Assembly: GCA_004431415.1 (NCBI GenBank)
Contig: QPMI01000529.1
Location: forward strand, 1 to 64,000
DNA length: 64,000 bases
Reading direction: 5' to 3'
Origin: Cyanophora paradoxa CCMP329
Taxonomy: Eukaryota > Plantae > Glaucophyta
How positions within the stretch are numbered: position 1 is the first letter of the stretch; the number at the start of each line of letters is the position of its first letter. This document shows, one piece after another, positions 45,401-64,000 of the stretch. A model generated the notes under the pieces. The model ran no database searches and was not told the DNA's origin. It saw nothing but the letters and a program-made list of their open reading frames with translations. The translations under genes and the position numbers were made by a program.

Positions 45401-48400
45401 TGCAAAGAAGGCATTAGAAGCGAGCCTTTATGTGCGTTTTAGAGTCGAACTTGACGACTGTAGAGTAAAACGCTTGCGACTCAGTGACGGCTACTTTCGT
45501 GTACCAGGTTTTGCCAGTGCCGTCCATAACCTGATCGAACAGGATGTAGCGTGCCGTTTATATTAATTATAATGAGTAAATGGATATGCGGGCGTCGGGA
45601 ATACCTGAAGCACGACTTGCTTCGCGATGGCCGCGACGACTCCCCCAAGACCGGACGATTGCTTGATCCATGACACATTCCATACGCCGCAGTCGACGCG
45701 GTGTGCGTCGAGAACGAAGGGCAAACTAGTGTTTCCGCCGATGAATCCCGCTGCAGGCAGGCCTGTTGGCCGACATTCACGATCAGTCCGCTACATATAC
45801 ATGTGCTGAACGCTCTATTAGACTCATGGATGATCATCAGTCCGCTCACAACTAGTAGTGTATATATTGGATTACGTATATACGTATGCATATGGAATTG
45901 AAAAAAGACGTGTGGTCATGAACCGCATGCGCACCTGGCATCTGCACAAGAAGAGGGGGCGCAAAATATCCAGGCTCAACGCTGGCCTTGGTCTTGTCAG
46001 TCGGATCGATGCTCAATCCTTGGAGTTGAAATCTGCCGTCAAGCTTTAAGCAGCTGCAGCTTAACCAGGCGTGTGCCCTTAAAGAATTCCAAACGCATGC
46101 GCACGAATATACAATCCCTGCAGAATTTGAATCGAATATTGCATCAGAGACCAGGAGATGCGCAGCAAAGGTTGGGACCGAGTGAGGTCACTGATCTAGA
46201 TGTACCTGGTAGCAAATTGAAAATTTGCAGCGACTTCGCGTAGAAATTCGGGCTCGGAACGTCTGCAATTGCAAGACACAGCAGTTCGTGAGCTTGAATG
46301 GCTTGTGACGTCGACACTCGGGTTTTCACGCACAATCGTAGTAAGGAGCGGATGTTGCTGGCGCAGTGACCATGAGGGCTGGATCAGGCTCGGCTGTAAT
46401 TGTTCCGACGTTGCGGACGCATTGCTTTGCAAACGCGGGCTCCGGATTCAAGCTTGGATTGCGGTGGAAGCCTTCCGTGCACGGCTGGCCGCTTGGGGTC
46501 CTCGGGGGCAGGACCAGGGCCTGTTTGAAAGAAATCACAAAATACGTGCGGATCTAGATATCTCATGCATCCACGTTCTAAATTTAAATATCATCTGCGG
46601 GTCGGATGGGGGTGTGGGGTGTGGGGTGACGTGTGTGTGTGTGGGGGGGGGGGGGGGGGAGGGGGGGGGGGGCTCGAGGGGACGAACCTGGTAGTAATTT
46701 GCACCGGTGACGAGATCCCAAGCGATTGAGAAGACAAATCGGCCGGGATTGCTGAGGTCTGCTGCAATGGAACCGAACCGGACATTCAAAGGCGCCGGCA
46801 AAGGCTCCCCTGGGCGGAACCATCAGGTTGTCGGTATCGCAAGCTTCGAAAAACGCGTATGCTCACGAAGAGTGCTGGTGAGGAGAAGCGGGGCCGTTAC
46901 GATGCTTCCATTTACAAGTAGAGCCTCGACAGCGACTGTGTATTCTTTTCGAGCACATGCAAGTAAGAGACGCATGCGCACGGGTAAGAGCGAGCGTTTG
47001 CGGACTGGTATTGACGGCAAGGCCAGTGAGCTTCGCGGTGTACTCAGTTCGGTACGATCCGGCAGCGAGAGTCGCTGGGAGGACATATCCCTCCGGAGGC
47101 ACCATCTGCGCATGCGTTCGTTTCACTCGCGTAGTTTTCCATAAGTTGTATACATGGAGCTTGTGCGAACCGAATCAGCAAGCAGCCTGGCGCATATGGC
47201 GCGAGGACTTGAAGTGTCGTATAGCATCGCCATTCTCTCACCTGACGGGCATGTTTCGGGGGCGATCTTTCCGGACAAGTCGGTTTTGAATTCAACGGCC
47301 CCGCTTGCGGGCAGGGCATCTGCTGGTTGGGCCATTTTCGCTTCGAAGCTTGCAGCGGCAAACCACTGGGTGCCGAGCGTTGGGTTTGCAGGGGAGCCCG
47401 TAGCTGGCGTCAACGAGTGCATGACCTGCGTGCATGTATGTATATATATGCATGCATATGCATTTATTATGCACGCTCACCCGGAAGGCGGCTACTTCGT
47501 CCGACATTATCTGTACGCTCGGATAAATCCAAGATACGACAATGTAGTTCGAGGCCCTGTCGATCACATGAGTTCTTCTCCATACACTGAACGGCAGGCG
47601 CTGCACGTCATAGGCAATATAGGCACCGGCGCATGGCCTTCGATCCAAAGCGGTTGCCCAGACTCTCGGGGTTCGCTGGTGTTGTGGGCTGGGGCGGGCA
47701 CTTCGTCGCGTAGATTGGAATGAAGTCCATAGTGTTCTAGATATGATCCCGGGTATGGTTAGCTATAGCTAACGCGTTCGTCCTCCCGATCGCGAGAGCA
47801 CCTTCCAAATCCTGCCCTTTCAATTAAATAAAGATAACATAAATTTGTAAATAGAAAGGAGAGCATGCACGCACTTTGATGTGCTGTCCTGCGCGCACAT
47901 CCGAAAACGGTTGTTTCAGTTTTGACCAACTGTATGCGCACAAGCGAAACAGCTCGTAATCGTACAAAATAGTGGCCGGCTATCATATAATTCAGACCAG
48001 CGCCACCAGGCATCTTCAGAAGGCCATCCAATTTCAAGAAACCGCCGACAAAAGGATAGAATCCAACCTGTATCTCGAGTGTCAAAGGTTCAATTTAGAG
48101 CTGTCCAGCGTTTGCGGCGCACCCAAATCTGTATCGCGCCCGGGCAGCCCCCGCCTTTGCTGCCGATCTAAAAACCGATGTCAGCGAGCTGGAGCGGCGT
48201 TCGAAGCCACGCACGCACTGGTTGCCACAACAGACCCAACTTAAAGTACACGGCTGCTTGGAACTGAATAAATCGAATCCCGTATACACTATGTATATCA
48301 CTCAAATCAGTTCGATGTTTGGATGTTTCGAAATCGAAATTTGAAGAGCACCCGAAGTCAAGGTCGATTTCAGGAACAAACTGGATCGCAAAGTTGAGAT

Positions 48401-51400
48401 CTGCAATTCGGCAAGCCAGCTCCTCATCAGTTCATCGTGACACTCAATCAACAATCAAGACAGGAGGCCAGCTACAGCTGCTCGCACATACGTCGGTCGG
48501 CGGGTTGAAAACAGGCGCCTGGTGCCATGAATAATCAAACAAATCAGCGAATACAAGATAAAACCCAATCGCAAGATCTTTAAACAGAACTACGCGCCCG
48601 GAAACTTGGTGCTTCTCCATCCATCCTTTATATTGTACCCATCGTTCAGAAAAATGAGAACTATATATACATCAACTTGCAAAGTTTCGCACCAGCCCGC
48701 GATCGGCGTGACTTTTCCTGATACGACAGTGAGAGAAGTACAGCAGGCCCCAGGCAGGGCCTAGCTTCAGATCGCTTTGCACCGTCTTTGAACTGGATTC
48801 CAAATTCGATCCCGCCATTAAGGGACCTTGTACGGGGGACGCGGTAGGTCGAACAGCAAAATTAAGCAGAACATGCATACCCTTCGAGATTGTTATCCCA
48901 TTGAATGCTTATAGCTCCATAGCATCCTAGATTGACCTGTCATGCTGATTTTAGACTCAAAGACAGTCAGGGCCTCAGCAAGCTCGATTCTTGAAGAATG
49001 CGCACATGTAGCTGGCGATGGACGATGATGTAGTGCTCAGTCAGAAAAGATGCATATGTGCACCCGCAATTCCAGGGAACGCTCAAAGCGCTTACCCCCG
49101 GCACGACGGTGACGACGACTGCAAATGGCCGAAAAGAACCGAAATCTTCAGAGCAAGTGCAAAACCAAGCAGTTGTAGAATAAATTACGCGAACCAGGCC
49201 CAACGTTAATATTCTTTATCCATTCCTTGCCTGCATAAAGTAGCGCTCAAAAAAGTGTGTCGTACAAAAGACAAAGCGGCGCGCCACACCCCAAATTTCT
49301 TGTTGTTTTCCGATGTCACCTGAACTGCGAAGAGCACCAAATATATATTCATGTGTTTGAAAGAGGACAAACGATTTTGATGAATTCAAAGGCAACAAGA
49401 CTTGTCAAGCGTACACGTTCACATGGATGTCAATGCTGAGTGCCGCTTTAATGCCGGCGAACTCTAAAATACCGGCAGTTAGTTATATTGAACTCGATGC
49501 TGAAGCCATTATATATATCACGCTAACGCACTTGTCAGTGTAATTTGTTTTAAGTTGTATTCCTCAATGACAAGTTCGAACTTGACGCCTGTGCCGGCCC
49601 AGAAATATCTACACACCAGCATCTCAAGAAATAAAAACCCAAAGAGCGGAGGGGCATGCTTGCATCTCTTTAGGGTCAATATCCATAACTCCCCACATAT
49701 CGTAGAAAGTCGATCCTTTCGAGCCCTGAATTCCGAACGATGCGCGCAAGCCGGAGGTCAGCGAACGGGATTGGAGTTCGATTCGAGACCTGATTCCGGA
49801 GCAAGAAGATCGCACGCACAGAAAATGAAAAATCTGCAAGCAGGAACACGTGATCATTGGCATCGCTTTGCACTAATTTATGGGGCATCTCAGGAAGCTG
49901 ACACGATACGTACCCCAAACTATGTGTGGAAACTACGCAAGAGAGAGGGCGGTTCATTATCGGAGAGACCATTCGAGGGAAAGTAGAGGAACGCGGCTAA
50001 AAACCTTTCTCAGTTGCTTGTGAAACACCTCGTCGAAATTGAAGCTGATTCCCCACGTCGGAACCCTGAAGTAGATTTCACAGTCGCCTCCAATACACTG
50101 CGCGATCCCGGGCGCGACTCAACTCCTCTTCGCGCTCCAAAAAGATTGAAGGGCAATACGACCGACCGAAATCGCCTCGAAGGCCAGAGACGCGATGTCG
50201 AGACCACGGTTAACCGACTCGCCAAACTGCTCGCCAGGGCAAGAAGAGCGTCGCCCACAATTGCAAGCACGTGCATGCATATGTGAGCACGCGTATACGT
50301 TAACGTTTGTGGCTCGGATGAACCGCTTTCAGAGATCTAAAGCAAGGCGCACGTCTTTTACTCCTGTGACCGCAACATTTTCGATAACTTCCAGCGTTTT
50401 GGTAACTGGATTCAAGATAAAATCCAGCTTGCCGCCTTGGAAGAGTCGGCATCAACGGTTTTGAGCGGGAGCCAGATAAAGAAGCAATGTGGCAGCGCAC
50501 CTGTGACTGCACTTGCCTGTTCGATTGTATGTTAGCGCGTGCGCATTATAATTACGTTATTCAATCATGAATCAGAGCGCACGACTTCGAGGAGCATCTT
50601 AGGAACGTCGAGAACTTTCTTGACAACCTGGGGCGCCATCGATATCGATACCAAGCCCTACATACATATGCGCAGCGAATGGCCGCGAAAGTGAACAAGT
50701 TCACGTTTACAAACCTGGACAGCTACGTCCTAGAAGAAGGTTACAACCGCAGAAGGTTAGTGTACGAAAACGGCAGAGGATTTCGCTTTTACGAACTGTG
50801 ATTGCGTTGACGATTTGTTTAGCTGCTTTTGGAATGGCGGCCTGCCGCGAGCGTCTGTGAGGAGACAAGAGTACTAGCCAATTTACGAGTGCGAAAGCTT
50901 GAGTGCGCACTGCTACTTTGGCGAACAGATTGATGCCTTTGCGGACCACGTTGCCAACTTCGTAGAAAGCCTTGGTCATTCCCGCTGCGAGAGAAAAAGC
51001 TCAAGGGGCCTGTTTATATCCGACGACAGGATCACTCATCCGCACGCACTTTTATCCATGACGCCTAGTATAGGATCGAGAATTGCGCCTTTTATGCCGT
51101 GCAGAACCTGGCCGACTACCTTGCAGCAGTCTCTGATTTCATCCGCAAAAGGCAAACTTTTCAGGAAACCTCCAAGAAAAGTAAGCTTGCGGCCTTGGCT
51201 TTGGCTCTGTTCGGCCTTAGCCCCGTCCGGCCCTGGTCGTTTACGTATACGGCTGCGATGACCAGATCCGGACGCCAGGCCTCCGGCCTCGTTCATGGTT
51301 GCGAATGCAGCCGCAGATTCTGACTTTGGACCTGCAATAATTAGTTAGACGGGAACGTCTCAGCTATATATGTGAGATAAAGCTAATCAAACCCTCGAAG

Positions 51401-53706
51401 TTGTGACCCCGGACCCTGCCAAACGACTTGTAAACGTGCTCTGATACCTTACGCGAGCCCGGACCCCTGTGAAGTTGATTGTCAATGTCCAGTGCGCCGG
51501 ATATATCATGATCAAGTAAAGAGCGCAAGCGTGAACGCAATTATCCAACATTGCAACTAATATCGCTTACGTGAACTCGTTATTAATATCTTCATCGTGG
51601 AGCTGGATGTGCAGATCCTGCGTCTCCACATGAGCTCACCGGACACCTAGATCTGACTTGTGCATTGACCTTAAAAATGTCCTGCGCCCGATATTGGAAT
51701 TCGTCTTTATACTATACTCGTAATGAAGTAATATAGAAGAAATGGTTCACCGCGAGGACGGCGGGCTCGGTCTCCAGCTCGACGCAGAGCCCGCGGATAG
51801 TGAAGACTTCATCCTCTTCCAAGTCAAGTTCTAAATTCGCCTGGCCTCGGCTTCCGCCTTCCACCGCAGTCACGGAACACTCTCGCGAATGAACCTGCAT
51901 GCAAGCGGTTGCAAGTTCGGCAAGCTTCATTGCAATGCCATGGCCAGCCAAGTGCTTGCGATCGCTCACCTCAACAATCTTGACCATCAATCCGACCTGA
52001 CCATGCCCCGCGCATTTCATTACAACATTCAATGATAAGGCATCGTCTTCCGAACGAAAATTGTGAGCTTATTACCGTACCTTTCCCGGCTTCTTTGTTC
52101 TCATTCCGTACTGACGGCGAGGCACATTGGGCTCGTCATCTTCCTCGTTTACAGCGTGTGTGCGCCCACAATCCCTGCGCACGCGTGAGGTGTCAACCCC
52201 AATAGCCCCTCGGGTCGGCTACAGCTGCTGCACGCGTACGCTTGAGATCTAGAGTGCAAATCAGGAAAAAAGTTTTTAGGAGGCGAGAGGGTGGTACAGA
52301 TAAATGACGGTGGGAGGGGGGTGGGTATCGCAGCGAGAGAGCCGGGAGGCTTCATAAAAATGAGCATCTACCAATCTAACTGGCGTGGGTGGGTGCTAGG
52401 AAAGCTCCAAAGTGACGCAGAAGCTTGAGAAGAACTTGCAGGTGGTTGGTTTGAGAAAAACTCGAGCTTGAGGGGGGGAGGCCATTGCAGCGGAGGGAAT
52501 TCGAATTGAAAGGGAACGGACGTGCACGTGCGCTGCATATTCAAGCATTCGATCCGGTACTGACCAGTGCGTCTCGCCGACGACGATGGCTCCCGGTCGA
52601 AACTTGCGCGCGTGCACGTGCACGTGGGCTTCCCGTTCTTCGTGATCCCCGTGGCCGTGCCCATGATTGGTGGTCGATCCACCAAGAACAATTGACACGG
52701 AAGAAGGGACGTCCGCGCAATGGACAGCGAGTACGGCGGGCTCTTCATCGAGATTCACCTGCAGGCTTCCGTTGAAAACCACTATTAATATTGAAAGCGT
52801 TTCTGTCAGCCGTCGCACCACATCGGCCGTCTGCACTGCCTTGAAGGCATAATGGGTTCTCTTGCCTGAAAGCACAAAGACGTTTGCAACGTTGAGTTTG
52901 AAATTGACATGAAAGGTAAATTATAATAACATAGAAAGAGCCTGCACTGCGCACCATTTCTGTGTAGTCGAAACTCCTCGTGCTGATAGTCGACATCACG
53001 CGCGGCCCGGCCCCCATGAATATTCAATATTAATAGGGATTTCGCGAATCGAAGTGCATTAGGATCGCTCAGTAAGCTTGCGCACGTCGTAGTGATGGTG
53101 TCCGGTGGTGGGGTCAGTCCGGCGCTACGTATACGTGTATATGCGTGCCGCAGTGCAAGCAGTGTGAGCGCGCGGCCGAGCTAATCTTTTGGCGCGCAAC
53201 GCGAGCAGCGGAGCGATCCGGAAAATCTGGAGCACCTTGGCGTCCCAACCAAGCGGGCGCGGCCGGCTCCCGTGTTTCGCGGGTCTCGAGATGAAATGTT
53301 GAGGTCGCTCGCGATGGGGTTGCTTATGCGATCGATACATATCTGAACGTTCGTTCTTAATCCGACTATTATGTTCTTCAAATTCATGCATTTGGTCATC
53401 ATCATCACTTTTATCATCACCAAGCTCGCGATTGGTCACGGGCTCACGCGTGCGCATTGGGCCTGCCGCTGCGGGCACCCATACTTAAGAATACCAAAAC
53501 CCGCTGATTTCGACAAAAAAATGAGAGGTGCTAGCATACAGACCTGAAACTTTGTAAGCGTACTCGTAAGCTGCATCCCGTTTATGTGTGGCATGAGTCT
53601 GTGCTTGCACTTCTTGGACGTATGCGCAGGCACAGCTACAGATGCATAGAGCAAACACGGACAGCAACAGCAGCGCCTGAGTTTTCGACGCTGCAGCTGG
53701 TCCCAT
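39410..53706 (-). CDS. Giant putative GPI-anchored cell-surface protein with Pmp-like right-handed beta-helix repeats, FN3-like and EGF-like segments
   Basis: N-terminal signal peptide (MGPAAASKTQALLLLSVFALCICSCACA); GGA(V/L/I) and FxxN repeats at ~41000-43200; Cys-rich stretch at ~40300-40460; C-terminus SNSAAG..LWALLSAWVAVYAAAAF*. All coding-like exons lie on the minus strand, but continuity as one gene is not proven. Confidence 0.6.
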
Positions 53707-53944
53707 TTGCGTGCTTGCGCTGGCGGACAGAGTTATCGCGGATCGATGTCCCCGACCAGGAAAACACGCGCGTGCGCAGTACTAGCCTAGTAGTACACTG
53801 TGACACCTTCCAACCTCCCGCTCCGGGACTTAGTTAACCTCTACATCTGGCTGCCCGGCCGCAGTGCTAGTACGAGCCTACTAGGCTAGTACTACGGTAA
53901 CCTAACAGTAGTACTCAGTGACTGAGAGTCTGAGACTCAGTGAC

Positions 53945-54011
53945 TACCGTGTGGCACGAAAATTACCGTGTGGCAATTTAAAACCACGGCAATTTAACTA
54001 CTCCTACAGTA
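53945..54011. mobile_element. MITE fragment (one end related to the element at 54633)
   Basis: GGCAATTTAA repeats ending TCCTACAG-TA, the reverse complement of the TA-CTGTAGGA..TTAAATTGCC end at 54631. Confidence 0.55.
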
Positions 54012-54242
54012 CTAGTACGTAGTAGCACCGATCAGCTTGATGATGGCATCATGATGCGCCTTGATCTGACTTGCGCATCGATATCATGGGATTCATGGCA
54101 TGCCGATACCGGTAGTCTCCTGATTCCTGAATCGATATGACGACGATATCCTGGCATAATCCTGCCATGGCCATTGGCCAGACAGCAGTGCCACACTGCC
54201 ACTGTCTGGCAGTGTCTGCCAGCTGCAGCTACTACGCGGCTA

Positions 54243-54594
54243 CTGTAAGCCGGGAAATATTTAGTATACTGGATCTTTATAGTACCAAAGTTTTGAGGCC
54301 TGACTACTAAAGTTTTATCGTATACTAAACCGAGGTGCGAGGGGGGGTACGTAGCCCGCGCGCGCAGCCAGAGTTGCAGTGCGGGAGAAGCTAGCTATAG
54401 TGCGAGGGGGCTTCCGGACTCTCCAACAGATCAAGACCCCCTGGCGCGCCCACCCCCTTCCAGACTTGAAAGGCCGCTACTAAAGCGCTCCGCGCGGCTA
54501 TCTCTTAATTATTTTCAGCCTACTAAACCGACCAAACCCCGGGATTATTAATTATTTTGGGGTCTTAAATATTACCCGACTCGGCGAATTACAG
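54243..54594. mobile_element. TA-flanked MITE (Tc1/mariner-pogo-like), imperfect TIRs
   Basis: TA|CTGTAA..CGGGAAATATTTA at the left; TAAATATTACCCG..TTACAG|TA at the right; internal TACTAAA repeats; non-coding. Confidence 0.6.
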
Positions 54595-54632
54595 TAATCT
54601 CCCGAGTCCCGACTCCCGAGTCCCGACTAGTA

Positions 54633-54857
54633 CTGTAGGAATGCTTAAATTGCCGCGTAGTTAAATTGCCGAATTCGACCAAAACCGGAATTGCCGTGAC
54701 GATAGATTGCCGAAACTCTGGATTTCTTCTATGGCGCCATACAAAAGCGGCCGTTTAGCCCTACCCCCTGAGAATTGCCGTGGCTTAAAATTGCCGAATT
54801 CGGCCTCTCGGCAATATACGGCAATTTAAAACATCGGCTAAAAAAGCATTCCTACAG
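54633..54857. mobile_element. TA-flanked MITE (Tc1/mariner-pogo-like)
   Basis: Perfect TIR CTGTAGGAATGCTT / AAGCATTCCTACAG, TA on both sides, multiple subterminal ATTGCCG/CGGCAAT repeats. Confidence 0.85.
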
Positions 54858-55080
54858 TACTCCCGACTCGAGAGTCGAGTCCCGACTCCCGACTCTCTCG
54901 AGTCCTGACTCCTGACTCCTGAATCGATATCCTACCAGACAGTGCCAGTTATATATGAGGGCCATCAATGGGCCAAACGCGAAAAGGCAACTCCGAGAGC
55001 TCGAGACTCGGAAGTGACGCTTGGATTGCGGAGGTTCTTATAACCGCCGCAACAGCTGTGGGGGTACCCCCTCCGAGGCT

Positions 55081-55191
55081 GGCGATCGCGGCGATCGCGA
55101 CCCGATCGCGACCCTGGTGATCGCGACTTTCTCCCGATCGCGACCCTTTTCGATCGCGATTTCGAGATCGGGGGCATTTCTGCGATCGCGA
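55081..55191. repeat. Cluster of seven GATCGCG motifs (CGATCG/TCGCGA palindromes)
   Basis: GATCGCG at ~55084, 55093, 55104, 55119, 55136, 55152 and 55184. Confidence 0.85.
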
Positions 55192-55318
55192 GAAAGGAAA
55201 AATCGGAAAAGGCCGAAAAGTGCGTTTTTCACGCGTGAAATCGACCGAAAACGAGGGTTCGAATCCCGGGCCCGGATTTGGACTTGGGCAAAATCTCGGA
55301 CTGAAATGGGAGAAAAAT

Positions 55319-55400
55319 GGGACCTGGGACTTGGGACTTGGGACTTGGGACTTGGGACTTGGGACTTGGGAAGAGTTGGAATCAGAGTCTGGACTCAAAA
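55319..55400 (+). repeat. Module 1: (GGGACTT)6 GGGAAGAGTT plus tail
   Basis: Six perfect heptamers at 55326-55367, preceded by the variant GGGACCT. Confidence 0.95.
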
Positions 55401-55427
55401 CGGGGAAATTTTCGGAGGGGGAGAAAA

Positions 55428-55898
55428 ATGTCAGGCAATCTCTATTACGATTTCCCCTTTGAGTTGCATATGGCATTCGAGAGGCTGCGCGAGTTCTGGC
55501 GTTGGCACCTCACAGGACATGACATTCCCGACATAACACCAGAGCCCAACACACAGGGCGTGCTTGAAGTCATCCGTCAATATCCGCGTCGATTCAATGA
55601 ATGGATCGAGTTCCACGCAACGAACCGTTTCCAGAGTCTCCCCGAGGCCATACGCGAAAATTTCGTGAGGCTGGTGGGACCAGGCTACGACAACCCTAAC
55701 AATCATAGACCACGCCCAGCTGGCGTGACGCGCGAAGCTCGAGAAGACCGTAGACTTTTCCGCAGGGAATTGAGAGAGGATAGACGGAGGCTTTCAATGG
55801 GGCTCCCGCAGATTGTGAGGGGGTACAGCCCGGATTACGAGACTTACCAAGAATTGTACGGCTTCGAAAATCCCTTTGAGAGGGTACTACCAGGGTGA
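55428..55898 (+). CDS. Viral hypothetical protein (156 aa)
   Basis: Intronless ORF MSGNLYYDFPF.. preceded by TTTTCGGA-N8-AAAATG. Confidence 0.7.
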   Translation: MSGNLYYDFPFELHMAFERLREFWRWHLTGHDIPDITPEPNTQGVLEVIRQYPRRFNEWIEFHATNRFQSLPEAIRENFVRLVGPGYDNPNNHRPRPAGVTREAREDRRLFRRELREDRRRLSMGLPQIVRGYSPDYETYQELYGFENPFERVLPG

Positions 55899-56236
55899 GG
55901 GGCCAGGGGGGGCCCCTGAGGGTGTACCCCCCATCCGAGACTCGACCTTCGGCGGACGCACTCGGGCAATTTCCGTCAGGCCGGCTCCTTTTTCTGTCTT
56001 CGGTCCAACGCTAAATTTGGCTTTTTCAGGCCAGTTGGCAACGTTTTCCGTTGCGAACTAGCCCAGGAAAAAATTCGCCCACAAAACCGCGGTCCGCCGC
56101 CATTTTGGCTCACTCTTGAAACGGGTTCGCCGCCTTCTCTCAGCCCAAGGAATCCCCGCCTCTCCGAATTTTCACAAGTCCGCTCTCTCAGTCACCTCAC
56201 GTTTTGCCTTTGCTGATCTCTCTTCCCTTTGCGCAG

Positions 56237-57292
56237 ATGTCGATTCCCTCTGAGCTTGTCGAGGACCTTGCCAAGGCCCGTGAGATGTGGGCTAAGTCCC
56301 GCGATTGGCCTACCCGTGAAATGGAGAAGCGTGCCCGCAAGCTGGGGTACCTCTACCAAGCTCACAGCGGAGAAGGCTTCCATACCATCAACCTCAACTT
56401 TGTATCCACCCTTCTGCCCAAGTCCAAGCAACCCAAGCCCGAGCCCAAGCCCGAGCCCGTCGACGTGCCCCCCGTCCCCGGCTGGGTCAAGACTCCCACT
56501 GGCTGGGGCGACCCCAAGCTTTTCGCCGAGTCTGCCGCCGAGACGCTCGCCTGGGCCTATCCCCCTCAAGTCTTCACGAATTTCCCCCCTCCGTCATCGT
56601 CGTCATCTGCCCCTCAGCCCGTCGCCGAGCCCGCTCCCGAGCCAGTCGATGACGCCGAGTCCGAGGCCTCTGACGCCGAGTCTGACATCAACGACTTTAT
56701 CGACTTTGACGTGCCGATTCCATACGACTCTGAGTCCTCTTCCGACTCTGAAGGCGACAACGAAAACCCGACTCGCAAGCGCCGCATTATCAAGACCAAG
56801 TCAATCGTCAAGAAGAAGTTCATGGAGACCACGTCATTCACCGACAACTCCGAGCGAGTCAAGAATCCCGCCAAGGAACACGAAAAAGACTTGAAGATCG
56901 GCGCTGGCATTGCCCGTTCTCGCGTCACGTCACACTTCAGCAAGCGCCTGACTCAGCACGTCAAGACCATTGAGAAGCGCATCATCGCCAAGCGCGAAAT
57001 GGCCGAACTCCGGCGCAAGTTGCGTCACGAGCGCCTTCTTCGTCGCGAGATGACGCTGGCCAAGATTGCCGAGCGCAAGAAGAAGGAGGCAGCGGAACTT
57101 AGGGCGCGCGTCGAGGCTCAGCAGCGGCGCGAGGCAGAGGCGGCAGCGGCCTTGGCGGCGCAGCGCGAGCAGGAGCGGCAGGACTTAGTGCAGGCAGCGC
57201 AGGCCCTTCCCCGCATTCCCCTTAAGTCCGCGCCCGAGGCCCCGATTGACTTGGTTTCCGATGACGATGATTCTGACTTTGAGATGCTGTAA
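56237..57292 (+). CDS. Putative nuclear regulatory protein (acidic tract, NLS-like RKRR, coiled coil, C-terminal SIM-like IDLVSDDDD)
   Basis: 351-aa ORF from the ATG directly after an acceptor (GCTGAT..pyrimidine tract..GCAG). TGTAA/TGTA motifs follow the stop. Confidence 0.75.
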   Translation: MSIPSELVEDLAKAREMWAKSRDWPTREMEKRARKLGYLYQAHSGEGFHTINLNFVSTLLPKSKQPKPEPKPEPVDVPPVPGWVKTPTGWGDPKLFAESAAETLAWAYPPQVFTNFPPPSSSSSAPQPVAEPAPEPVDDAESEASDAESDINDFIDFDVPIPYDSESSSDSEGDNENPTRKRRIIKTKSIVKKKFMETTSFTDNSERVKNPAKEHEKDLKIGAGIARSRVTSHFSKRLTQHVKTIEKRIIAKREMAELRRKLRHERLLRREMTLAKIAERKKKEAAELRARVEAQQRREAEAAAALAAQREQERQDLVQAAQALPRIPLKSAPEAPIDLVSDDDDSDFEML

Positions 57293-57363
57293 ATAGTATT
57301 GCGTCATTCCATTGTACATACTTGTAAAAATTGGCCGACTATTCAGTTATGACTTGGCGCGAT

Positions 57364-57472
57364 CCTGGGACTTGGGACTTGGGACTTGGGACTTGGGACT
57401 TGGGACTTGGGACTTGGGAAGAGTTAGACTCAGGGTCTGGGCCCAGACTTTCTCTGGATCTGAGAGTTTGCC
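57364..57472 (+). repeat. Module 2: CCT(GGGACTT)7 GGGAAGAGTT plus ~45 bp tail
   Basis: Seven heptamers at 57367-57415; direct repeat of module 1 and inverted repeat of module 3. Confidence 0.95.
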
Positions 57473-57791
57473 GTGCCAAGTCCCTAACCACCGGGCAGAC
57501 TTAGAAAGGGGTACGGAAATTTGGATACGACGTTTCTGGTGACATTCCAGGTGAGATTTCAAGCGAGGTAGAGTCTGAACTGGTGTACGACTTGTAGCAT
57601 GATACTGGACATGAAAGCTCACGAGAGTATGCAACCGAAAAAGGATGTGAAGAGGGGTAGGAGTATTCGTGCGAGATGTCGAGAGAAGGAGGGTACGAGA
57701 TGGGATACGAGTAAAAAAGACTACGAGTAAAAAAGAGTACGAGGGGTGGTAGGAGTAAAAAAGTCGGTAGAAAAACTCACCTGACTTGTCT

Positions 57792-57886
57792 GACAAATTT
57801 CTGATCCTGGAGAAAGTCTGGGCCGGGACCTGGGTTTCAACTCTTCCCAAGTCCCAAGTCCCAAGTCCCAAGTCCCAAGTCCCAGG
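57792..57886 (-). repeat. Module 3 (inverted): CCT(GGGACTT)5 GGGAAGAGTT plus tail
   Basis: (AAGTCCC)5 at 57849-57883; the tail GGCCCAGACTTTCTC..GGATC is shared with module 2. Confidence 0.95.
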
Positions 57887-57907
57887 TTTTTCTGAACCTA
57901 GGGCAAA

Positions 57908-58271
57908 ATGGCCCTGCTCCGGTGCACCGACTCGCAAGACGTCGCCTACAACGTCCTGGTCAACTCGGACGTACCCCCGAGTGCCTTGGAGTTTCCCTGG
58001 AGAGTGGACAGGGACAGGGTGAGCAAGACGTTTGGAGGGCGCAAGCACTACCTCTCCCAACTGATCCTCGGGAAGTCGCCACGTGGACGCTACGTGGAAC
58101 ACATCAACGGCAACCCGCTGGACTACAGGAGGGAGAACCTGCGCTGGCATCAATGTCGGATATTCGCAAGAAGAGGAGGGGTACGCCAATTTACAGGAGA
58201 AGAGCGAGGAGATTCGGGAGATGATGGAGGCGGCACAGGCGCTAATGCAGCTTAGCCAGTCTAGACGCTAG
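57908..58271 (+). CDS. Degenerate HNH-endonuclease-like protein (probable frameshift near 58145)
   Basis: YLSQLILG..YVEHINGNPLDYRRENLR resembles the HNH consensus DHINGNxLDNRRxNLR. An alternative frame continues into EEEGYANLQEKSEEIREMMEAAQALMQLS. Confidence 0.7.
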
Positions 58272-59073
58272 TGGTGTGAATCTTGGTGTCGTACTCGCGA
58301 CCAACCGTTTCCCAGGCCACGTAAACTTCGGCTCCGGCGCCTGGCGCTGTCGAGTTGGTAGTCGCAGTCGTGTAGTCCGCCTCTGCCTCAATTAGTTCGG
58401 CCATGAGGGTAGAGCCCACGACCATTCCAGAGGTAGGCATTCCGGCGATGTTGTTGTACAATTTGAAAGTGAATTTCGTGAAGAGGAGCCGGGGCCAGAC
58501 CTGGGTACGGGGATTCGAGGCGCCGTATGAATAATCGGTACCCGAGGCGCCGCCCGTGGTGGCATTCGTCATCATCTCCTTTGCGGTCATCTTCCAGAGG
58601 TTGTACATCTCAAAGGGAACGGCCTGCGTGGTCTTGTGTGTGGCATCGATGAGGGCGCCATCTAAATGCGTTTTGATGTTCGGATTCGCACCATTCCCGA
58701 ATTTGCGAGTGAGGGCGGTGTTAGCGGTGAACTTGAGTTCGAGCACGCGAATGGCGGGCCGATCAGGCACAGAGGGCTCTATCTTTTTCAGGAGGCCCGA
58801 GAGCCAGAGCGCCTCCGCCTCATCCGCGCTCACGCCCGAGTCGATGTCAAAGTACACGTACACGGAGCAGGAGGCGGGATTCTCGAAATCGTTGGAGGTG
58901 ACGCGCAACATGACGGGATTCTGGACCCTCACGGTGAGCGGGGTGGCGTAGTTTCCGTCCCACTCCACCTTGTCCGTCCCTGCGTTGGCCACGTTCCCAG
59001 CGTTGCCGTAGAAATCGGGGACGATCGAGCCGGCAGACACGGTCTTCACGATGGTGGCCGAGGTGGTCGGCAT
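58261..59073 (-). CDS. Viral hypothetical beta-rich protein, paralogue A (possibly structural)
   Basis: Intronless 270-aa ORF with AAAATG start; aligns by eye with the upstream ORF (QNPV, SGLLKK/SGLVKK, LELKF/LEVKF, PRxxFTxFxF). Confidence 0.8.
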   Translation of the reverse strand: MPTTSATIVKTVSAGSIVPDFYGNAGNVANAGTDKVEWDGNYATPLTVRVQNPVMLRVTSNDFENPASCSVYVYFDIDSGVSADEAEALWLSGLLKKIEPSVPDRPAIRVLELKFTANTALTRKFGNGANPNIKTHLDGALIDATHKTTQAVPFEMYNLWKMTAKEMMTNATTGGASGTDYSYGASNPRTQVWPRLLFTKFTFKLYNNIAGMPTSGMVVGSTLMAELIEAEADYTTATTNSTAPGAGAEVYVAWETVGREYDTKIHTTSV

Positions 59074-59096
59074 TTTGCGACCTCAAATGAGAAAGA

Positions 59097-59776
59097 TTAT
59101 CCGTGAAAGAGGGTGATGTCGCCACCGATGTTCATGACGCGGGCCCCAGGCACAGAGTCAGCGTCGGTGCCGTACGCGTAGGAAATCGAGCACTCACGCA
59201 GCTCCGCGCAGAGGCTGGCGCCCGTGCTGAAGTGGGGCTGGTCGGCGGCGTAGGAGAGGGGAAGACCTGGAACCTGAAAAAGGTGAAGGGGAAGCGGGGT
59301 AGAGTCGAGCCGCGTGGGTTGCCGCCCGTGTAGAGGGCCCCCAGGGTCGCGGGACTTGGATTGAATTTCGTGAAGAGCACGTCGCCCTTGAGCGTACCCC
59401 TCATCTGGTAAGTTCCCGTACCCGGAAGATTCGAAGAACTGGGGTACCGGTTCACGGTGGGGCCGTACCCCGTCTCCCTGAACTTGACCTCGAGACAGCG
59501 CAAGACGTTGGCAGTGGCCGTGGCAGGTGCCACCTTTTTCACGAGTCCTGATTCGTGCAGCAGCTCGATAACCTCTGCGCTGAGGCTCAGAGGGTCGAAG
59601 AAGAGCTGGTAGGAATAAATCTTGGGCGTGGCGTAGGCGTTCTGAACGACCTGAATCACGACGGGATTCTGCAGAAAGACGTCGACGTAACTGCCGGAGG
59701 GTATGCGTGCGAAATCCTTGGTGTTGTTGCCAACGTCAAGTGAGCCGCTGAGGGTCTGGTACCAGTTGGAAGTCAT
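59097..59776 (-). CDS. Viral hypothetical beta-rich protein, paralogue B (one frameshift near 59260)
   Basis: ORF 59132..59776. A shifted frame gives STGASLCAELRECSISY..PGARV..FHG*, which matches paralogue A (VGSTLMAELIEAEADY..PGAG). Confidence 0.75.
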
Positions 59777-59814: not shown

Positions 59815-61954
59815 ATGCCCCGCTTCGTATTCGTGAAAAAGCAGGTGGTGCAGGCTCCGCAGTATGGCGTGGAGCCGATCTCGCTGACTGTGGGCAGGCC
59901 CCAGGTGCGATCGGGCTCCGTGCTCAACAACGGGAACAGTACGTACGGCTTTCAGCTGAACTGGGTCGCGGTCACCAACGCCGTCAAGTACAAGGTGTAC
60001 AGGGCGACCAGCATCAACGGCCCCTGGGATCTCGTGGCCACGGTGAATGCGCCAACCGTCACCTACACGGACTCTCCCTTTAGTTTGGGGCCCAGCGACT
60101 CTACCGCGTGGCGGCGGTTCGCGAACAGGGCAGCAGCAGCACGGGCTCTGATGGCAAAGCCCCGCCCACAACCTACGCACAGTCGCTTCTCTACACCCAC
60201 GAGGGTGCCATGAGCAATTACATTCTCTTCCAAGGCATAGGCGGCTTCAGCCCGCAGATCGAAGCCTACACCACGCTCACGACCGCCACGGCCCAGACCT
60301 ACGGCGATTTTATTGCCGGGGGCGGCCCCGCGTCTTCGGGCTTCCCGAAACCCGCCATAGTCGTCACAATCAACTGGGTGGCCATGGAGGGCGCGGACTC
60401 GATTCGAATTTACAGGAACGGTACGCCAATCGGATTTGCGAGCAGTGCCCTGTCTACCTCGTACATTGACGATAGCACTGCTCTTACGTGGGGCACGGAA
60501 TACTCTTACCAGGTGGCCGGCATCGTGGGCGGTGTCGAATACGACAAGTCCGATCCGCTCCTGGTCTGGACTATGCCAAACGCCCCCACGAACGTGACGG
60601 CATCAGCACCCAACGACCAGCAGCAGCCTGTCAGCCTCAGCTGGACTGCGTCCACGGGAGCGACGGGATACAAGATTTACAGAGACGGGGCCTACCTCAC
60701 AGACTCCGCGACCAACTCCTACAGCGACACGACCACCGTCTGGGGTACAGGGTACGAGTACCAGATCTCCGCGACGAACACGGGAGGGGAGGGGCCGAAG
60801 AGTATTGCGGCGTACGTCACCACGGACCCGGGGGCGCCCACTGGGCTCACTGCAACCCCCGCGGCGGGGGCAGCACAGCCTGTTGTGCTCGAGTGGTCGG
60901 TGCCGGTGACGGGCGTCACCGTCTCCTACAACATCTACAGGGGTGGCGTGTTCCTTGCCAGCGACACGAGCAGCCCCTTTTCGGACACAACGACCGTTTA
61001 CGGAACCACTTACACTTACACCATCAAGGGCGTCAACCAGATCGGCGAGGAAGGCCCTCAGTCCTCGTCTGCCAGTGCAACAACTGCAAACGCTCCTGTT
61101 TTGGGTACATTCTCCTACACCGGGGCCGACCAGACTTTCGTAGTACCAACGGGGACTGTGGCTGTGCGTGTCATCGTATGGGCGGCCGGGGTGGAGGCGG
61201 AGAACGCGCAGGTACGGGGGTCCGTGGAGGCGCGGGTGCTTGCGTAGTTGGTACATTGGCTGTGTCCTCGGGGGAGACGCTCATCCTTGTTGTTGGATGC
61301 GGCGGCCCAAAGGGTGTATCGGGGACTGCCACTGCTACCGTCTACGGAGGTGGTGGAAGGGGCTGGAGCCATAGCGTCGATCCGGAGTACAAAAACGGCG
61401 CCGGTGGTGGTCGTTCTGCAATTCAGCGCGTTGCAGGGACCGACTTGGTTGTTGCAGGGGCCGGAGGTGGGGGTACATGTGATTCGAATGGCGGCGGGGG
61501 AGTAGGCGGGGGGTTGACCGGTGGTGCGGCTGGGTTGGTTGGAGTAACCGGAGAGATACCGGCTCAAGGAGGCACCCAAACCGCTGGCGGAGCCGGTGTT
61601 GTGGCCTCAGGGGCCAGGCCCAGCAACCCGGGAACTTTGCGCCAAGGTGGAGAGACTGGGCCTGATTCAAGCGGCTACAGGTTCGGTGGTGGTGGTGGTG
61701 GTGGTTACTTCGGTGGAGGCTCTGGGTCCAGCAGGAGCGGAGTGTCAGAGAACCCAATAGCAAGAATGTTTGGAGGTGGCGGTGGCTCGAGCTACATAGG
61801 AAACTTGACGGATGCTACGGTGTATCCTGGGTCCGGCCAGGTGGCAGGAAATAGCGGAGACGCTCACTACGCAGCAGGCATTGGTAGGGGCGGCAACGGT
61901 GGCTCGTCTTTCAGCGACGGTGGCAACGGTCGAATTGTGATACTCGCGGTGTAG
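59815..61954 (+). CDS. FN3-repeat plus C-terminal glycine-rich (ALK/LTK GRD-like) protein, about 710 aa after correcting two frameshifts
   Basis: Four FN3-like units (LxW..YxVYR/IYR..YxD..YxVxA) then FSYTGADQTFVVP..GGGG..GGYFGGG..GGGGGSSY..GGNGRIVI. Frames rejoin by adding one G at G-runs near 60090 and 61190. Confidence 0.8.
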
Positions 61955-61974
61955 TTATTCCTAGTTGTTCCAGA

Positions 61975-63042
61975 TCAGCTCGCCAGTGCCGCTACCTGGT
62001 CTTTGAGAGTTTGAACTTCTTGTGAAAGTTCCTGAATTGCCTTCAACGACAGGGAAATGAGCCTGTCGTAGTTTACCCCGAGAAATCCATCCGCGTTCTC
62101 GAAAACGAGACTCGGGAAGACGCCTTGGACTTCCTGTGCGATGAGACCGTAATCCGTTTTCGAACCCCCCGAGGATGTGTTCTTCCAGGTGAACGACACG
62201 GGATTCAGCTGCAGCAGAAGAGGGAGAATGCCCGACATGCTCGCGACATTTTCTTTCAGGCGGCTATCGCTCGACGAGTTTGTCAGGTATCCTTGAGCAT
62301 CCGAATAAACGGCTCGGTTTCCATCGCCCGTGAGCGTCGAGACGATGAGCCGACCCGTGATGCCAACGCCGACGGTTCCGCACAGCAGTCGTTCGGTGCC
62401 GTTGTTTCTCAAGGATAGACCAGAGCTGACGCTGACGCTTCCGCTATCAACGATTGAAGTGTTTGCTATGCTTAGGCCATTAGTAGGGCCTTCGATTGCC
62501 GAGGTAAATAGAGTACCTGTAACACCAACGCCAAGAGTCCCACAGAGGAGTCTATCGTTTTCGTTGTACTTTATAGCTACGCCTGAACCACCGCCATTTA
62601 TGTACGGTGACGTTCCGGTAATTTGCAGCTTATCGTCCAATGTAACGATGCCCGCCAAGTTTGAAGCCCCGCTCACCCTAAGCCCCCCCACCACGTTTGC
62701 TCCGCCTCCTTGCACATACAGAGCCGCATTCCCCTCCCCGTTCACAGTCCCATTAAAGGTCACCTGATTCGTGGTGTACCCGCTCCCGTCCCAGGCCCCG
62801 TTCGTGACGGTGAGCCTCTGCGTCCTCACGCGCCCCGGCACGGCCGACCCGCCCTCCCGCGTGCGCATCTTGTCGCAGCGCAGCTCGCCGACGCGGACGA
62901 GGTCGGCCTCGGAAAAGGGGACGGCCGTGGCGTTGTAGGGGGCCTCGGTGGCCTGGTTTCCGAGGGTGGTCTCCTTAATCGTGTGATCGCCCTTGTGATT
63001 CACGCTGGCAGCATAGGTAAATAGAGGGACAGCGACCGACAT
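61975..63042 (-). CDS. Fibre/spike protein with C-terminal intramolecular chaperone autoprocessing (peptidase S74) domain
   Basis: SSDSRLKENV..LNPVSFTWK..GLIAQEV..FPSLV..VNYDRL..KAIQEL then coiled coil; internal repeat RLLCGTxGVG(V/I)TG occurs twice. Confidence 0.92.
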   Translation of the reverse strand: MSVAVPLFTYAASVNHKGDHTIKETTLGNQATEAPYNATAVPFSEADLVRVGELRCDKMRTREGGSAVPGRVRTQRLTVTNGAWDGSGYTTNQVTFNGTVNGEGNAALYVQGGGANVVGGLRVSGASNLAGIVTLDDKLQITGTSPYINGGGSGVAIKYNENDRLLCGTLGVGVTGTLFTSAIEGPTNGLSIANTSIVDSGSVSVSSGLSLRNNGTERLLCGTVGVGITGRLIVSTLTGDGNRAVYSDAQGYLTNSSSDSRLKENVASMSGILPLLLQLNPVSFTWKNTSSGGSKTDYGLIAQEVQGVFPSLVFENADGFLGVNYDRLISLSLKAIQELSQEVQTLKDQVAALAS

Positions 63043-63066
63043 TTTTGGATTGCATCAGAAAATCGA

Positions 63067-64000
63067 TTACATAAGCAGCTTGCCGATCGCGGTCCAATGA
63101 ATAAAAAGCTGGACAATTTGGGTGGGCGTGACCGTCATTCTGGGTTGGAATCTCACTTTAACTGTAAAGCCAGTGTGACTCACCGCCGTGACGTTGGCCC
63201 CGTAGAAATCGACATCCGTGCTGCCGCCGGGATTGATGTCGAACGAGGGGGTTACGTTAATAACCGGCGTTGGGTTTGCTGGGGTCCCCAGTCCGCCTCC
63301 AGTGTCGTACGCCTGTCCGAATGTAATGTTGAACGTCACCGTGTATGTTGAATTGATGTTAAACTCCGTGTACGCAGCGTAGGAGTGGAAGGACGTGCCG
63401 TGCGTTATGTACGCATCCATGTTCACGTTTCTGTGCCCGTGGCTGGTGAGCGAGTACTCTGTGTGACTGTGCGTAGAGGGTGGGAAGGAAGTGGGTCGGT
63501 CGATGACATTATCCCAGTACACATTGTGACTGTGTGTAGAGGGGGGGAAGGTAAGTGGCTTGCCCGTTACGTTGTCCCAATCCACGGAGATGTTCGTCAA
63601 GTCCGGGGCCGTCCAGTCGCTGATCTGAGAGATGGTGTGCTGGTGGTCTGCGTGGGGATACGTACTCGGCTTCCCCGTGATGCTATCCCACGCCCACGTT
63701 GTTGGTATCACGGGTATCGTCGGCCTCCCGCTGAGATCTGCATACGCCCCCGTGTGTGCCACCGTCGCCAGCTGCGGCACGGCAACGCCCACGGTGCTCA
63801 CGGCCTGGCTCGCCCCCGGCGCCATGTGCCACTCGTAGTTCTGCGATGCAAACACGGGCTGGCCTGGCTCGGGCGCCCAGTACTCGATGCCTTTGGCGAT
63901 CTTCTTGGTGTATGGTGCTGCAGGCCTGTCAACCAATTTATCGACGTAGGCCTTGGGTACCAGCCAGTTTGCCTTGGGGCTCTGCGAATTGATCCCGTTG
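63067..64000 (-). CDS. Phage-tail-fibre-like protein (5' end outside the window) with C-terminal H-lectin/gp53-like domain
   Basis: Frame is open to the window edge (VPKAYVDK); LATVAHTGAYADLSGRP; three W(D)xxxx(K/R)PxxxPxxxHxH repeats; C-terminus TGFTV..IHWTAIG. Confidence 0.85.
   Translation of the reverse strand, partial: NGINSQSPKANWLVPKAYVDKLVDRPAAPYTKKIAKGIEYWAPEPGQPVFASQNYEWHMAPGASQAVSTVGVAVPQLATVAHTGAYADLSGRPTIPVIPTTWAWDSITGKPSTYPHADHQHTISQISDWTAPDLTNISVDWDNVTGKPLTFPPSTHSHNVYWDNVIDRPTSFPPSTHSHTEYSLTSHGHRNVNMDAYITHGTSFHSYAAYTEFNINSTYTVTFNITFGQAYDTGGGLGTPANPTPVINVTPSFDINPGGSTDVDFYGANVTAVSHTGFTVKVRFQPRMTVTPTQIVQLFIHWTAIGKLLM

What the first reader, a model, noticed from the sequence alone, without database searches (positions are those of the whole stretch)
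55319..58271. Candidate control module of an endogenous virus: three (GGGACTT)n modules bracketing two regulator-like genes
Seen: three copies of CCT(GGGACTT)5-7 GGGAAGAGTT plus tail. Modules 1 and 2 are direct repeats enclosing ORF 55428 and the intron-bearing ORF 56237. Modules 2 and 3 are inverted around a non-coding spacer. Module 3 directly abuts the promoter-like motif of the degenerate HNH gene, and module 1 lies just upstream of the same motif at ORF 55428. Established: four or more GGG runs with short loops can fold into G-quadruplexes. Inference: the arrays are operators, G4 switches or recombination sites that, with the SIM protein and the HNH-like DNA binder, form a latency/reactivation switch. 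I know of no described equivalent but cannot search.
Basis: partly seen in the sequence, partly recalled or inferred. Interest (0 to 1): 0.85.

Follow-up and report, generated by a model that had tools for sequence, protein, structure and literature searches.

The report
G-rich repeat modules in algal provirus
A virus-like element present in dozens of copies in the alga Cyanophora paradoxa carries three copies of a short G-rich repeat module beside its non-structural genes; they likely serve as host-read control signals for those genes, but no on/off switch is shown.

Summary
In detail: three perfect arrays of one 7-bp G3N4 unit (6, 7, 5 units), each with the same 10-bp end and a related tail; 1 and 2 direct, 2 and 3 facing. 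They are the window's only such arrays (0 in 100 simulated windows). The locus is the left, non-structural end of a Polinton-like element of Cyanophora paradoxa with homologues on at least 53 contigs. Module 2 recurs with 7 units and the same flanks in a sister copy of another sub-lineage. ORF 56237 has a 59-nt intron just before its ATG, removed in one probable RNA run, ends in a SIM-like motif and is mosaic between copies. The modules are the element's most CpG-poor stretches. The gene beyond the HNH-like ORF is predicted, weakly, to be a T7-type ssDNA-binding protein. No evidence for excision (37 of 38 sister contigs keep ORF 56237); inversion, binding and G4 folding are untested; the 'promoter motif' is just a common start-codon context. 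Best reading: a thrice-copied promoter/leader module for host-transcribed genes (45%); neutral repeat 25%; origin 15%; recombination switch 10%.

The parts
55056..55078 (+). Palindromic G/C motif heading the first gene unit; probable left limit of the element (inferred)
   Evidence: Second copy at 55916; local alignment score 38; nest of host-type inverted repeats lies to its left
55082..55191 (.). Cluster of short CpG-rich palindromes (7 copies of one 6-mer) between the left motif and module 1
   Evidence: CpG o/e 1.68
55317..55319 (+). Upstream ATG directly before array 1, same context as the ATG at 55428; in frame in the window, out of frame (48-aa uORF) with the extra base seen in three runs
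55319..55437 (+). Module 1: variant unit + 6 perfect 7-bp units + shared 10-mer + tail running into the start of ORF 55428
55428..55898 (+). ORF 55428, 156 aa, no family or homologue; body replaced in a minority of copies
   Evidence: joint 55430-55845 in X1
55916..55940 (+). Second copy of the palindromic G/C motif, heading the ORF 56237 unit
   Evidence: X16 contigs stop at 55931 and start at 55935 (weak hint)
56178..56236 (+). 59-nt spliceosomal-type intron directly before the ATG of ORF 56237
   Evidence: GT..AG skip in X16 contig, 245 letters on the short side; sequence
56237..57292 (+). ORF 56237, 351 aa: variable N-terminus, acidic tract, basic/coiled region, C-terminal SIM-like motif
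57364..57490 (+). Module 2: 7 perfect units + shared 10-mer + tail; 72 nt after the ORF 56237 stop
   Evidence: same unit number and flanks in sister gene model P0051
57490..57780 (.). Non-coding-looking spacer, 46% GC, strongly purine-skewed; holds facing splice-donor-like 8-mers (57548 +, 57783 -), a candidate 47-nt intron plus 43-aa ORF (+) and a candidate 60-nt intron (-)
   Evidence: no Rfam match
57779..57886 (-). Module 3: 5 perfect units + shared 10-mer + tail, inverted relative to module 2
57908..58272 (+). HNH-like ORF, degenerate active-site motif, reading frame ambiguous after about 58150
   Evidence: Pfam HNH_3 E 5.7e-6; Atlas 0.95; frames
58261..59073 (-). 270-aa protein, predicted T7 gp2.5/Enc34-type ssDNA-binding fold (low-confidence model)
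59132..59776 (-). Paralogue of the 270-aa protein (40% over 68 aa)
60210..64000 (.). Structural/fibre genes of the element: fibronectin III, glycine-rich, S74-chaperone fibre, tail-repeat plus H-lectin fibre; element runs off the window
   Evidence: architecture as in PMC12220804

Best explanation
The three arrays are copies of one roughly 120-bp module of a multi-copy Polinton-like element of Cyanophora paradoxa, and they likely act as oriented promoter/leader elements that would let the host polymerase read the element's terminal non-structural genes while it is integrated. Shown: the modules are paralogues with pure arrays and diverged tails; module 1 leads straight into the start of ORF 55428; module 3's tail aligns with that leader and start; both facing modules lead to a splice-donor-like site; the modules are the element's CpG-poorest stretches; the enclosed gene ORF 56237 has a host-type leader intron that is removed in one probable RNA run. 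Inferred: the G3N4 runs bind a host or viral factor and/or fold into a moderately stable G-quadruplex, keeping these spots open in a genome that silences viral genes by CpG methylation; ORF 56237 (SIM-like end) and the nuclease-degenerate HNH protein would be early or latency-phase regulators; modules 2 and 3 would drive short or non-coding convergent transcripts or serve the HNH gene.
For: Pure arrays (0 of 18 units mismatched) against 12 mismatches in 57 tail positions between modules 2 and 3. Module 2 kept with 7 units and both flanks on tig00021441 (P0051), whose ORF 56237 homologue (P0092) is of the other C-terminal type. All 5 of 353 125-bp windows with two or fewer CpGs fall on the modules; tails alone have 4 CpG against 11.6 expected, P about 0.01. 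C. paradoxa has 32% CpG methylation, with methylated genes mostly silent and enriched for viral genes (PMC12344493, passages and section 9). The donor-like 8-mer occurs once per strand after 55,000, both times in the module 2/3 region. Spliced contig in X16; contigs of X15 and X16 cover ORF 55428 and reach 34 letters left of the laid stretch, by position into module 1. Intron-bearing genes mark the latent programme of an algal endogenous giant virus (bioRxiv 10.64898/2026.10.09.758095, passages).
Against: No transcription start was mapped; contigs cannot show starts, strand or level, and the RNA label of X15, X16, X18 is a guess. The one gene shown spliced, ORF 56237, has no array upstream; it is headed by a different motif (55916). 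Module 2 lies after a stop and module 3 points away from the HNH gene, so two of three modules have no obvious gene to drive. Array purity can come from slippage, and CpG loss from old methylation decay: three of the four units of a small array in the adjacent repeat nest (54597-54624) contain CpG in tandem and its units differ from the element's unit by 1-2 bases. Only one sister copy was seen directly, only for module 2, through a predicted gene model. For the closest bacterial analogue no regulatory role was found (PMC4692102, Discussion).
Confidence: 0.45

Rival explanations
1. Neutral passengers: a small host-type repeat or fold-back element entered the ancestor of this virus family, was duplicated, lost its CpGs and is kept pure by slippage; it is copied with the element and does nothing.
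For: A nest of short inverted-repeat elements with a related G3N4 heptamer array lies just left of the element. Modules 2/3 look like fold-back arms. G3N4 heptamer arrays in convergent pairs arise in unrelated bacteria with no shown role (PMC4692102). G4 patterns are common in the host DNA.
Against: No target-site duplication of 3 bp or more around modules 2-3. Same unit and 10-mer in three copies whose tails have diverged by a fifth or more; module 2 unchanged across sub-lineages while the adjacent gene is mosaic. No copy in the window's other 55 kb.
Confidence: 0.25
2. Replication or packaging signal: the facing arrays are iterons or G4 sites flanking an unwinding spacer, read by the HNH-like protein next door and served by the two ssDNA-binding-like proteins.
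For: Facing arrays around a 46% GC, strand-skewed spacer. The adjacent 270-aa protein's best six structural matches are all T7 gp2.5/Enc34/DUF2815 proteins (Z 6.0-7.2, rmsd 3.7-4.7, 119-127 aligned; same family top). HNH genes are linked to packaging in a PLV (PMC12220804 passage).
Against: Model pLDDT is 38.6 and Z is under 8; no sequence support. The spacer is only mildly AT-rich. Module 1 is not explained. The element's replicase is outside the window; protein-primed replicases start at termini (recalled).
Confidence: 0.15
3. Recombination switch: the direct pair excises or swaps the two enclosed genes, or the inverted pair flips the spacer, perhaps G4-driven as in antigenic variation.
For: The enclosed genes are mosaic: 5 N-terminal and 3 C-terminal types of ORF 56237 in 9 combinations among 42 typed of 54 models; ORF 55428 body replaced in a minority contig.
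Against: 36 of 38 contigs with the 270-aa gene cluster keep ORF 56237 within 1-3 gene numbers, a 37th by adjacent accession. Replacement joints (55430, 55845, 56266-56525) lie inside genes, not at arrays. The 270-aa gene outside the pair also has divergent types (61-85%). Flipping the spacer would move no known gene.
Confidence: 0.1
4. Telomere mimic for integration or capping, as in some herpesviruses (recalled).
For: Same G3N4 build as plant-type telomere units (recalled; G4Hunter 1.19-1.29 vs 1.5 for the plant-type control).
Against: The glaucophyte tested, Glaucocystis, has the 6-nt human-type repeat (PMC3622300 passages, Cyanophora not mentioned). Arrays are internal and face both ways; this copy sits in non-telomeric DNA.
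Confidence: 0.03

Closest known systems
Heptameric G4-forming repeats of Xanthomonas and Nostoc (Rehm et al. 2015, PMC4692102; passages and Discussion read)
   Same: [quoted passage not shown]
   Different: Bacterial, genome-wide, length-variable, no shared tail reported, no role found; here three copies with a homologous tail inside a eukaryotic endogenous virus-like element.
Polinton-like viruses of Cyanophora paradoxa (Bellas et al. 2023, PMC10120064, supplement: 366 capsid hits; PMC12220804 passage and supplement: tail-repeat plus H-lectin fibre)
   Same: Same host, multi-copy compact element, S74-chaperone fibre, tail-repeat/H-lectin fibre, free-standing HNH gene.
   Different: No cis-elements, introns or regulators described in the passages seen; capsid, ATPase, integrase and TIRs are outside this window.
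Latency genes of punuivirus, the endogenous giant virus of Chlamydomonas (bioRxiv 10.64898/2026.10.09.758095; passages)
   Same: Host-like spliceosomal introns on non-structural viral genes, expressed without virion production.
   Different: 617-kb giant virus; no G-rich array modules in the passages seen; expression timing is not known here.
Fold-back transposons / MITEs with tandem arrays in their arms (recalled)
   Same: Inverted arms made of a short tandem array plus an inner segment around a non-coding spacer.
   Different: No target-site duplication; a third, unpaired arm; no dispersed copies in the window.

Membership tests
Polinton-like virus | Double jelly-roll major capsid gene | not testable with these tools
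   Window ends in fibre genes; no genome held; none of the six example capsid contigs in the PMC10120064 supplement is among the 53 contigs (compared by eye)
Polinton-like virus | Packaging ATPase, penton, integrase, replicase | not testable with these tools
   Not among the 10 ORFs scanned; rest of element outside window
Polinton-like virus | Terminal inverted repeats | not testable with these tools
   Right end outside window; left end only inferred near 55056
Polinton-like virus | Multi-copy integration in a protist genome | tested here: met
   Homologues on at least 53 named contigs, syntenic on 36 of 38
Polinton-like virus | Phage-like fibre genes (typical, not defining) | tested here: met
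   Peptidase_S74 E 2.7e-14; tail PHROGs; H_lectin only E 0.12
G4-forming heptamer repeat (Rehm type) | Four or more G3 runs with short loops | tested here: met
   7-8, 8 and 6 G3 runs; G4 in ViennaRNA MFE of all three as RNA
G4-forming heptamer repeat (Rehm type) | G4 folding in vitro | not testable with these tools
   Needs CD or footprinting
G4-forming heptamer repeat (Rehm type) | Dispersed genome-wide | tested here: inconclusive
   None in the window's other 55 kb; whole genome not held
MITE / fold-back transposon | Terminal inverted arms | tested here: met
   78-89 nt arms, 88-89%
MITE / fold-back transposon | Target-site duplication | tested here: not met
   No 3-10 bp duplication at any tested end pair
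Active HNH endonuclease | Intact His-Asn-Asn/His motif | tested here: not met
   Match covers only model positions 12-38 of 46; the central Asn position reads Tyr and no frame supplies the last ligand (against a recalled consensus)
T7 gp2.5/Enc34-type SSB (58261-59073) | OB fold with family-specific elements | tested here: inconclusive
   Top six VIA rows Z 6.0-7.2 from a pLDDT 38.6 model; no sequence match
Telomeric repeat of the host | Unit equals the host telomere unit | tested here: inconclusive
   Glaucocystis is human-type; C. paradoxa not reported there

The most novel reading that the evidence does not exclude
A small endogenous virus keeps a methylation-proof, G-quadruplex control cassette at its end: array 1 sits between two start codons so that slippage in unit number (in frame at 5 or 8 units, out of frame at 6 or 7) toggles translation of ORF 55428, the facing arrays drive convergent spliced RNAs, and a spliced, allele-swapping SIM protein plus a dead HNH protein set latency across some 50 resident copies.
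Probability: 0.15. Interest if true: 0.8.

Novelty: new variant of a known kind. Interest (0 to 1): 0.5.

Why it matters
How Polinton-like viruses stay silent or become active in protist genomes is largely open, and almost no cis-acting signals are known for them apart from terminal repeats. A compact, conserved, CpG-poor module next to a spliced, host-like regulator candidate, in a culturable alga with about 50 sister copies and published methylomes, gives direct handles: compare copies, map starts, mutate the arrays. If the arrays prove neutral, the locus still documents a host-type intron and strong allele mosaicism in a small endogenous virus.

Tried and rejected
No whole genome held, so the genome-wide count of arrays, the element's right end and unit numbers in sister copies stay open; read support across the arrays themselves is lacking. 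Exact array pattern in viral contigs: 0; module 2 tail in metagenome contigs: 0; relatives of the 270-aa gene in viral contigs and metagenome contigs: none. ORF 55428: no homologue among 192 candidates; one repetitive spurious hit among 1.84 billion. ORF 56237: no Pfam family in 24 of 24 aligned members. Exact look-up found 1 of 10 window ORF versions, not the HNH or 55428 ORFs. Single-sequence fold of the 270-aa protein failed (pLDDT 28.8); Atlas hits under 0.9; the wide structure search was busy twice and not run. Spacer: no Rfam match; an open minus-strand frame through it arises in 1.8% of shuffles and is not taken as a gene. No RNA holder on record (labels are guesses). In-frame fusion of ATG 55317 to ORF 55428 rejected as probably an assembly slip or private variant (extra base in X1, X15, X16). 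Mriyavirus identity considered because of the T7-type SSB (PMC11253617 passages; bioRxiv 10.64898/2026.08.29.747986 passages): neither mentions Cyanophora; not resolved. Earlier-findings look-ups by place and sequence were empty.
Full report
Observation. The sequence holds three perfect arrays of one 7-bp unit made of three G and a four-base loop: 55326-55367 (+, 6 units), 57367-57415 (+, 7) and 57849-57883 (-, 5), each followed by the same 10-mer. They are the only perfect arrays of five or more heptamers in the window, against 0 in 100 order-3 Markov simulations; 0 of 18 units has a mismatch. The similarity continues into tails (2 vs 3: 45 of 57 aligned positions, 0 of 2000 shuffles; 1 vs 2 p=0.0035; 1 vs 3 p=0.0185), so these are three copies of a roughly 120-bp module. 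G4-type patterns as such are common in the host part (87 hits before 39,500). The 'promoter-like motif' is an A-run before ATG seen at 6 of 9 starts inspected.

The element. Homologues of the 270-aa ORF (14 clusters among 1033 candidates) and of ORF 56237 (27 clusters among the 7999 candidates scored) are EukProt gene models of Cyanophora paradoxa, apart from two unnamed 270-aa relatives. All multi-member clusters were read. ORF 56237 homologues lie on at least 53 named contigs; 36 of 38 contigs with a member of the 270-aa clusters (which include models of, or fused with, its paralogous neighbour) carry one within 1-3 gene numbers, and a 37th does by adjacent accession. To the right lie fibronectin III, glycine-rich, S74-chaperone and tail-repeat fibre genes. 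PMC12220804 (passages, supplement search) reports a tail-repeat plus H-lectin fibre in a C. paradoxa Polinton-like virus; PMC10120064 (passages, supplement rows) lists 366 capsid hits in this genome. Capsid, ATPase, integrase and TIRs are outside the window and no genome was held, so 'Polinton-like' is the likely, not proven, class. A nest of short inverted-repeat elements at 53770-54950 precedes a palindromic motif at 55056 that recurs at 55916; I infer the left end near there.

Sister copies. Gene model P0051 (tig00021441) runs from the 270-aa gene into a peptide matching the minus strand of 57351-57431, that is module 2 with seven units and both flanks; it was 1 of 97 proteins screened, the others not being expected to cover non-coding DNA. 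The ORF 56237 homologue on that contig is of the other C-terminal type and starts with a peptide of ORF 55428, as do three more models. Modules 1 and 3 were not seen in sister copies. Contigs of four coded runs laid on 55385-57350 show, in DNA run X1, one 207-nt contig identical to the core of ORF 55428 at depth 2159 against minority joints at 29-75 (consistent with many copies; depth is not a copy number), a minority form with the body of ORF 55428 replaced after the ATG, and replaced N-termini of ORF 56237. Among 54 models, 42 could be typed into 5 N-terminal and 3 C-terminal types in 9 combinations, and 50 end in a hydrophobic-acidic motif of SIM type (SIM consensus recalled). No Pfam family matches 24 of 24 aligned members.

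Expression. One contig of X16 (RNA by guess) skips 56178-56236, a GT..AG intron directly before the ATG of ORF 56237; X15 and X18 contigs retain part or all of it, so DNA or unspliced RNA is present too. Contigs of X15 and X16 cover ORF 55428 and reach 34 letters beyond the left end of the laid stretch, by position into module 1 (letters not seen). Three runs show one more base behind 55396 than the window; with it the ATG at 55317 opens a 48-aa out-of-frame uORF, in frame only at 5 or 8 units. No start site, strand or level can be read from contigs.

Neighbouring proteins. The ORF at 57908 matches HNH_3 over model positions 12-38 (Atlas 0.95) but lacks the later ligands in every frame (consensus recalled); its frame after about 58150 is ambiguous. 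A seven-sequence model of the 270-aa protein is poor (pLDDT 38.6), yet its best matches in three searches are the T7 gp2.5/Enc34/DUF2815 ssDNA-binding family (BFVD best named E 2.5e-3; PDB top six, E 0.06-0.2; VIA Z 6.0-7.2); sequence searches give nothing. This is a lead.

Mechanism. All 5 of 353 windows of 125 bp with two or fewer CpGs fall on the modules, partly because the arrays lack CpG; the tails alone have 4 against 11.6 expected (P about 0.01). The host methylates 32% of CpGs and its methylated genes are mostly silent and enriched for viral genes (PMC12344493; outline, passages, section 9). Module 1 leads in 50 nt to an ATG; module 3's tail aligns with that leader; both facing modules lead to the only two copies of a splice-donor-like 8-mer after 55,000, with a candidate 60-nt pyrimidine-rich intron on the minus strand and a candidate 47-nt intron before a 43-aa ORF on the plus strand (host introns average 86 bp, PMC6704402 passages). 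I therefore favour a copied promoter/leader module for host-transcribed terminal genes (0.45). Against it: no start mapped, the spliced gene has no upstream array, and purity and CpG loss can be neutral; a small array in the adjacent nest differs by 1-2 bases per unit, favouring a neutral host-repeat origin (0.25), though no target-site duplication exists. An origin or packaging signal (0.15) rests on geometry and the SSB lead. A recombination switch (0.10) is disfavoured by retention of ORF 56237 and by joints lying inside genes. Telomere mimicry is unlikely (PMC3622300 passages).

Comparison and novelty. The closest described sequence class is the G4-forming heptamer repeats of Xanthomonas and Nostoc, often in convergent pairs near ORF ends, folding at 50.4 C for the G3N4 oligo, with no role found (PMC4692102; passages and Discussion); this lead came from an earlier finding. 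Intron-bearing latency genes are described for an algal endogenous giant virus (bioRxiv 10.64898/2026.10.09.758095, passages; its supplements were not seen). Ten searches of the open library (listings only, except the papers named) showed no description of these modules; 'polinton-like virus' with 'terminal inverted repeats' and 'G-quadruplex' gave 0 papers. Subscription papers and cut supplement parts were not covered. Verdict: a real, ordered, family-linked cis feature of an endogenous virus-like element, a new variant of known repeat types; the switch remains a hypothesis. Interest 0.5.

Noticed in passing
window 53770-54950: Nest of short inverted-repeat (MITE-like) elements with palindromic junctions, including a 233-bp element at 54629-54861 inside a small G3N4 heptamer array related to the element's unit.
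   Followed up: partly
window 55082-55191: Dense cluster of short CpG-rich palindromes resembling the cyanobacterial HIP1 octamer (name recalled), right next to CpG-poor module 1.
   Followed up: partly
window 55056-55078 and 55916-55940: Two copies of a palindromic G/C motif head the two gene units; X16 contigs break at the second. Candidate promoter, terminus or recombination site.
   Followed up: partly
window 58131-58272: An alternative frame at the end of the HNH-like ORF gives an acidic helix ending in a motif like Sin3-interaction domains (recalled); a one-base assembly slip or short intron may hide a DNA-binding repressor.
   Followed up: no
window 58261-59776: Two paralogous genes; the 270-aa one is predicted to have a T7 gp2.5/Enc34-type ssDNA-binding fold and occurs in at least three divergent types in the genome.
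   Followed up: partly
window 55743-55754: Contigs of two probable RNA runs share five substitutions absent from the DNA run's listed contigs: transcripts may come from particular copies.
   Followed up: no
window 39300-53700: About 14 kb at 47-55% GC without long ORFs between 70% GC host DNA and the element; nature not examined. Poly-C (39218-39260) and poly-G (46643-46681) tracts lie in it.
   Followed up: no
window 59132-59776 and 60210-61954: Apparent frameshifts relative to sister gene models or domain continuity; may be assembly errors common in this assembly's multi-copy regions.
   Followed up: no
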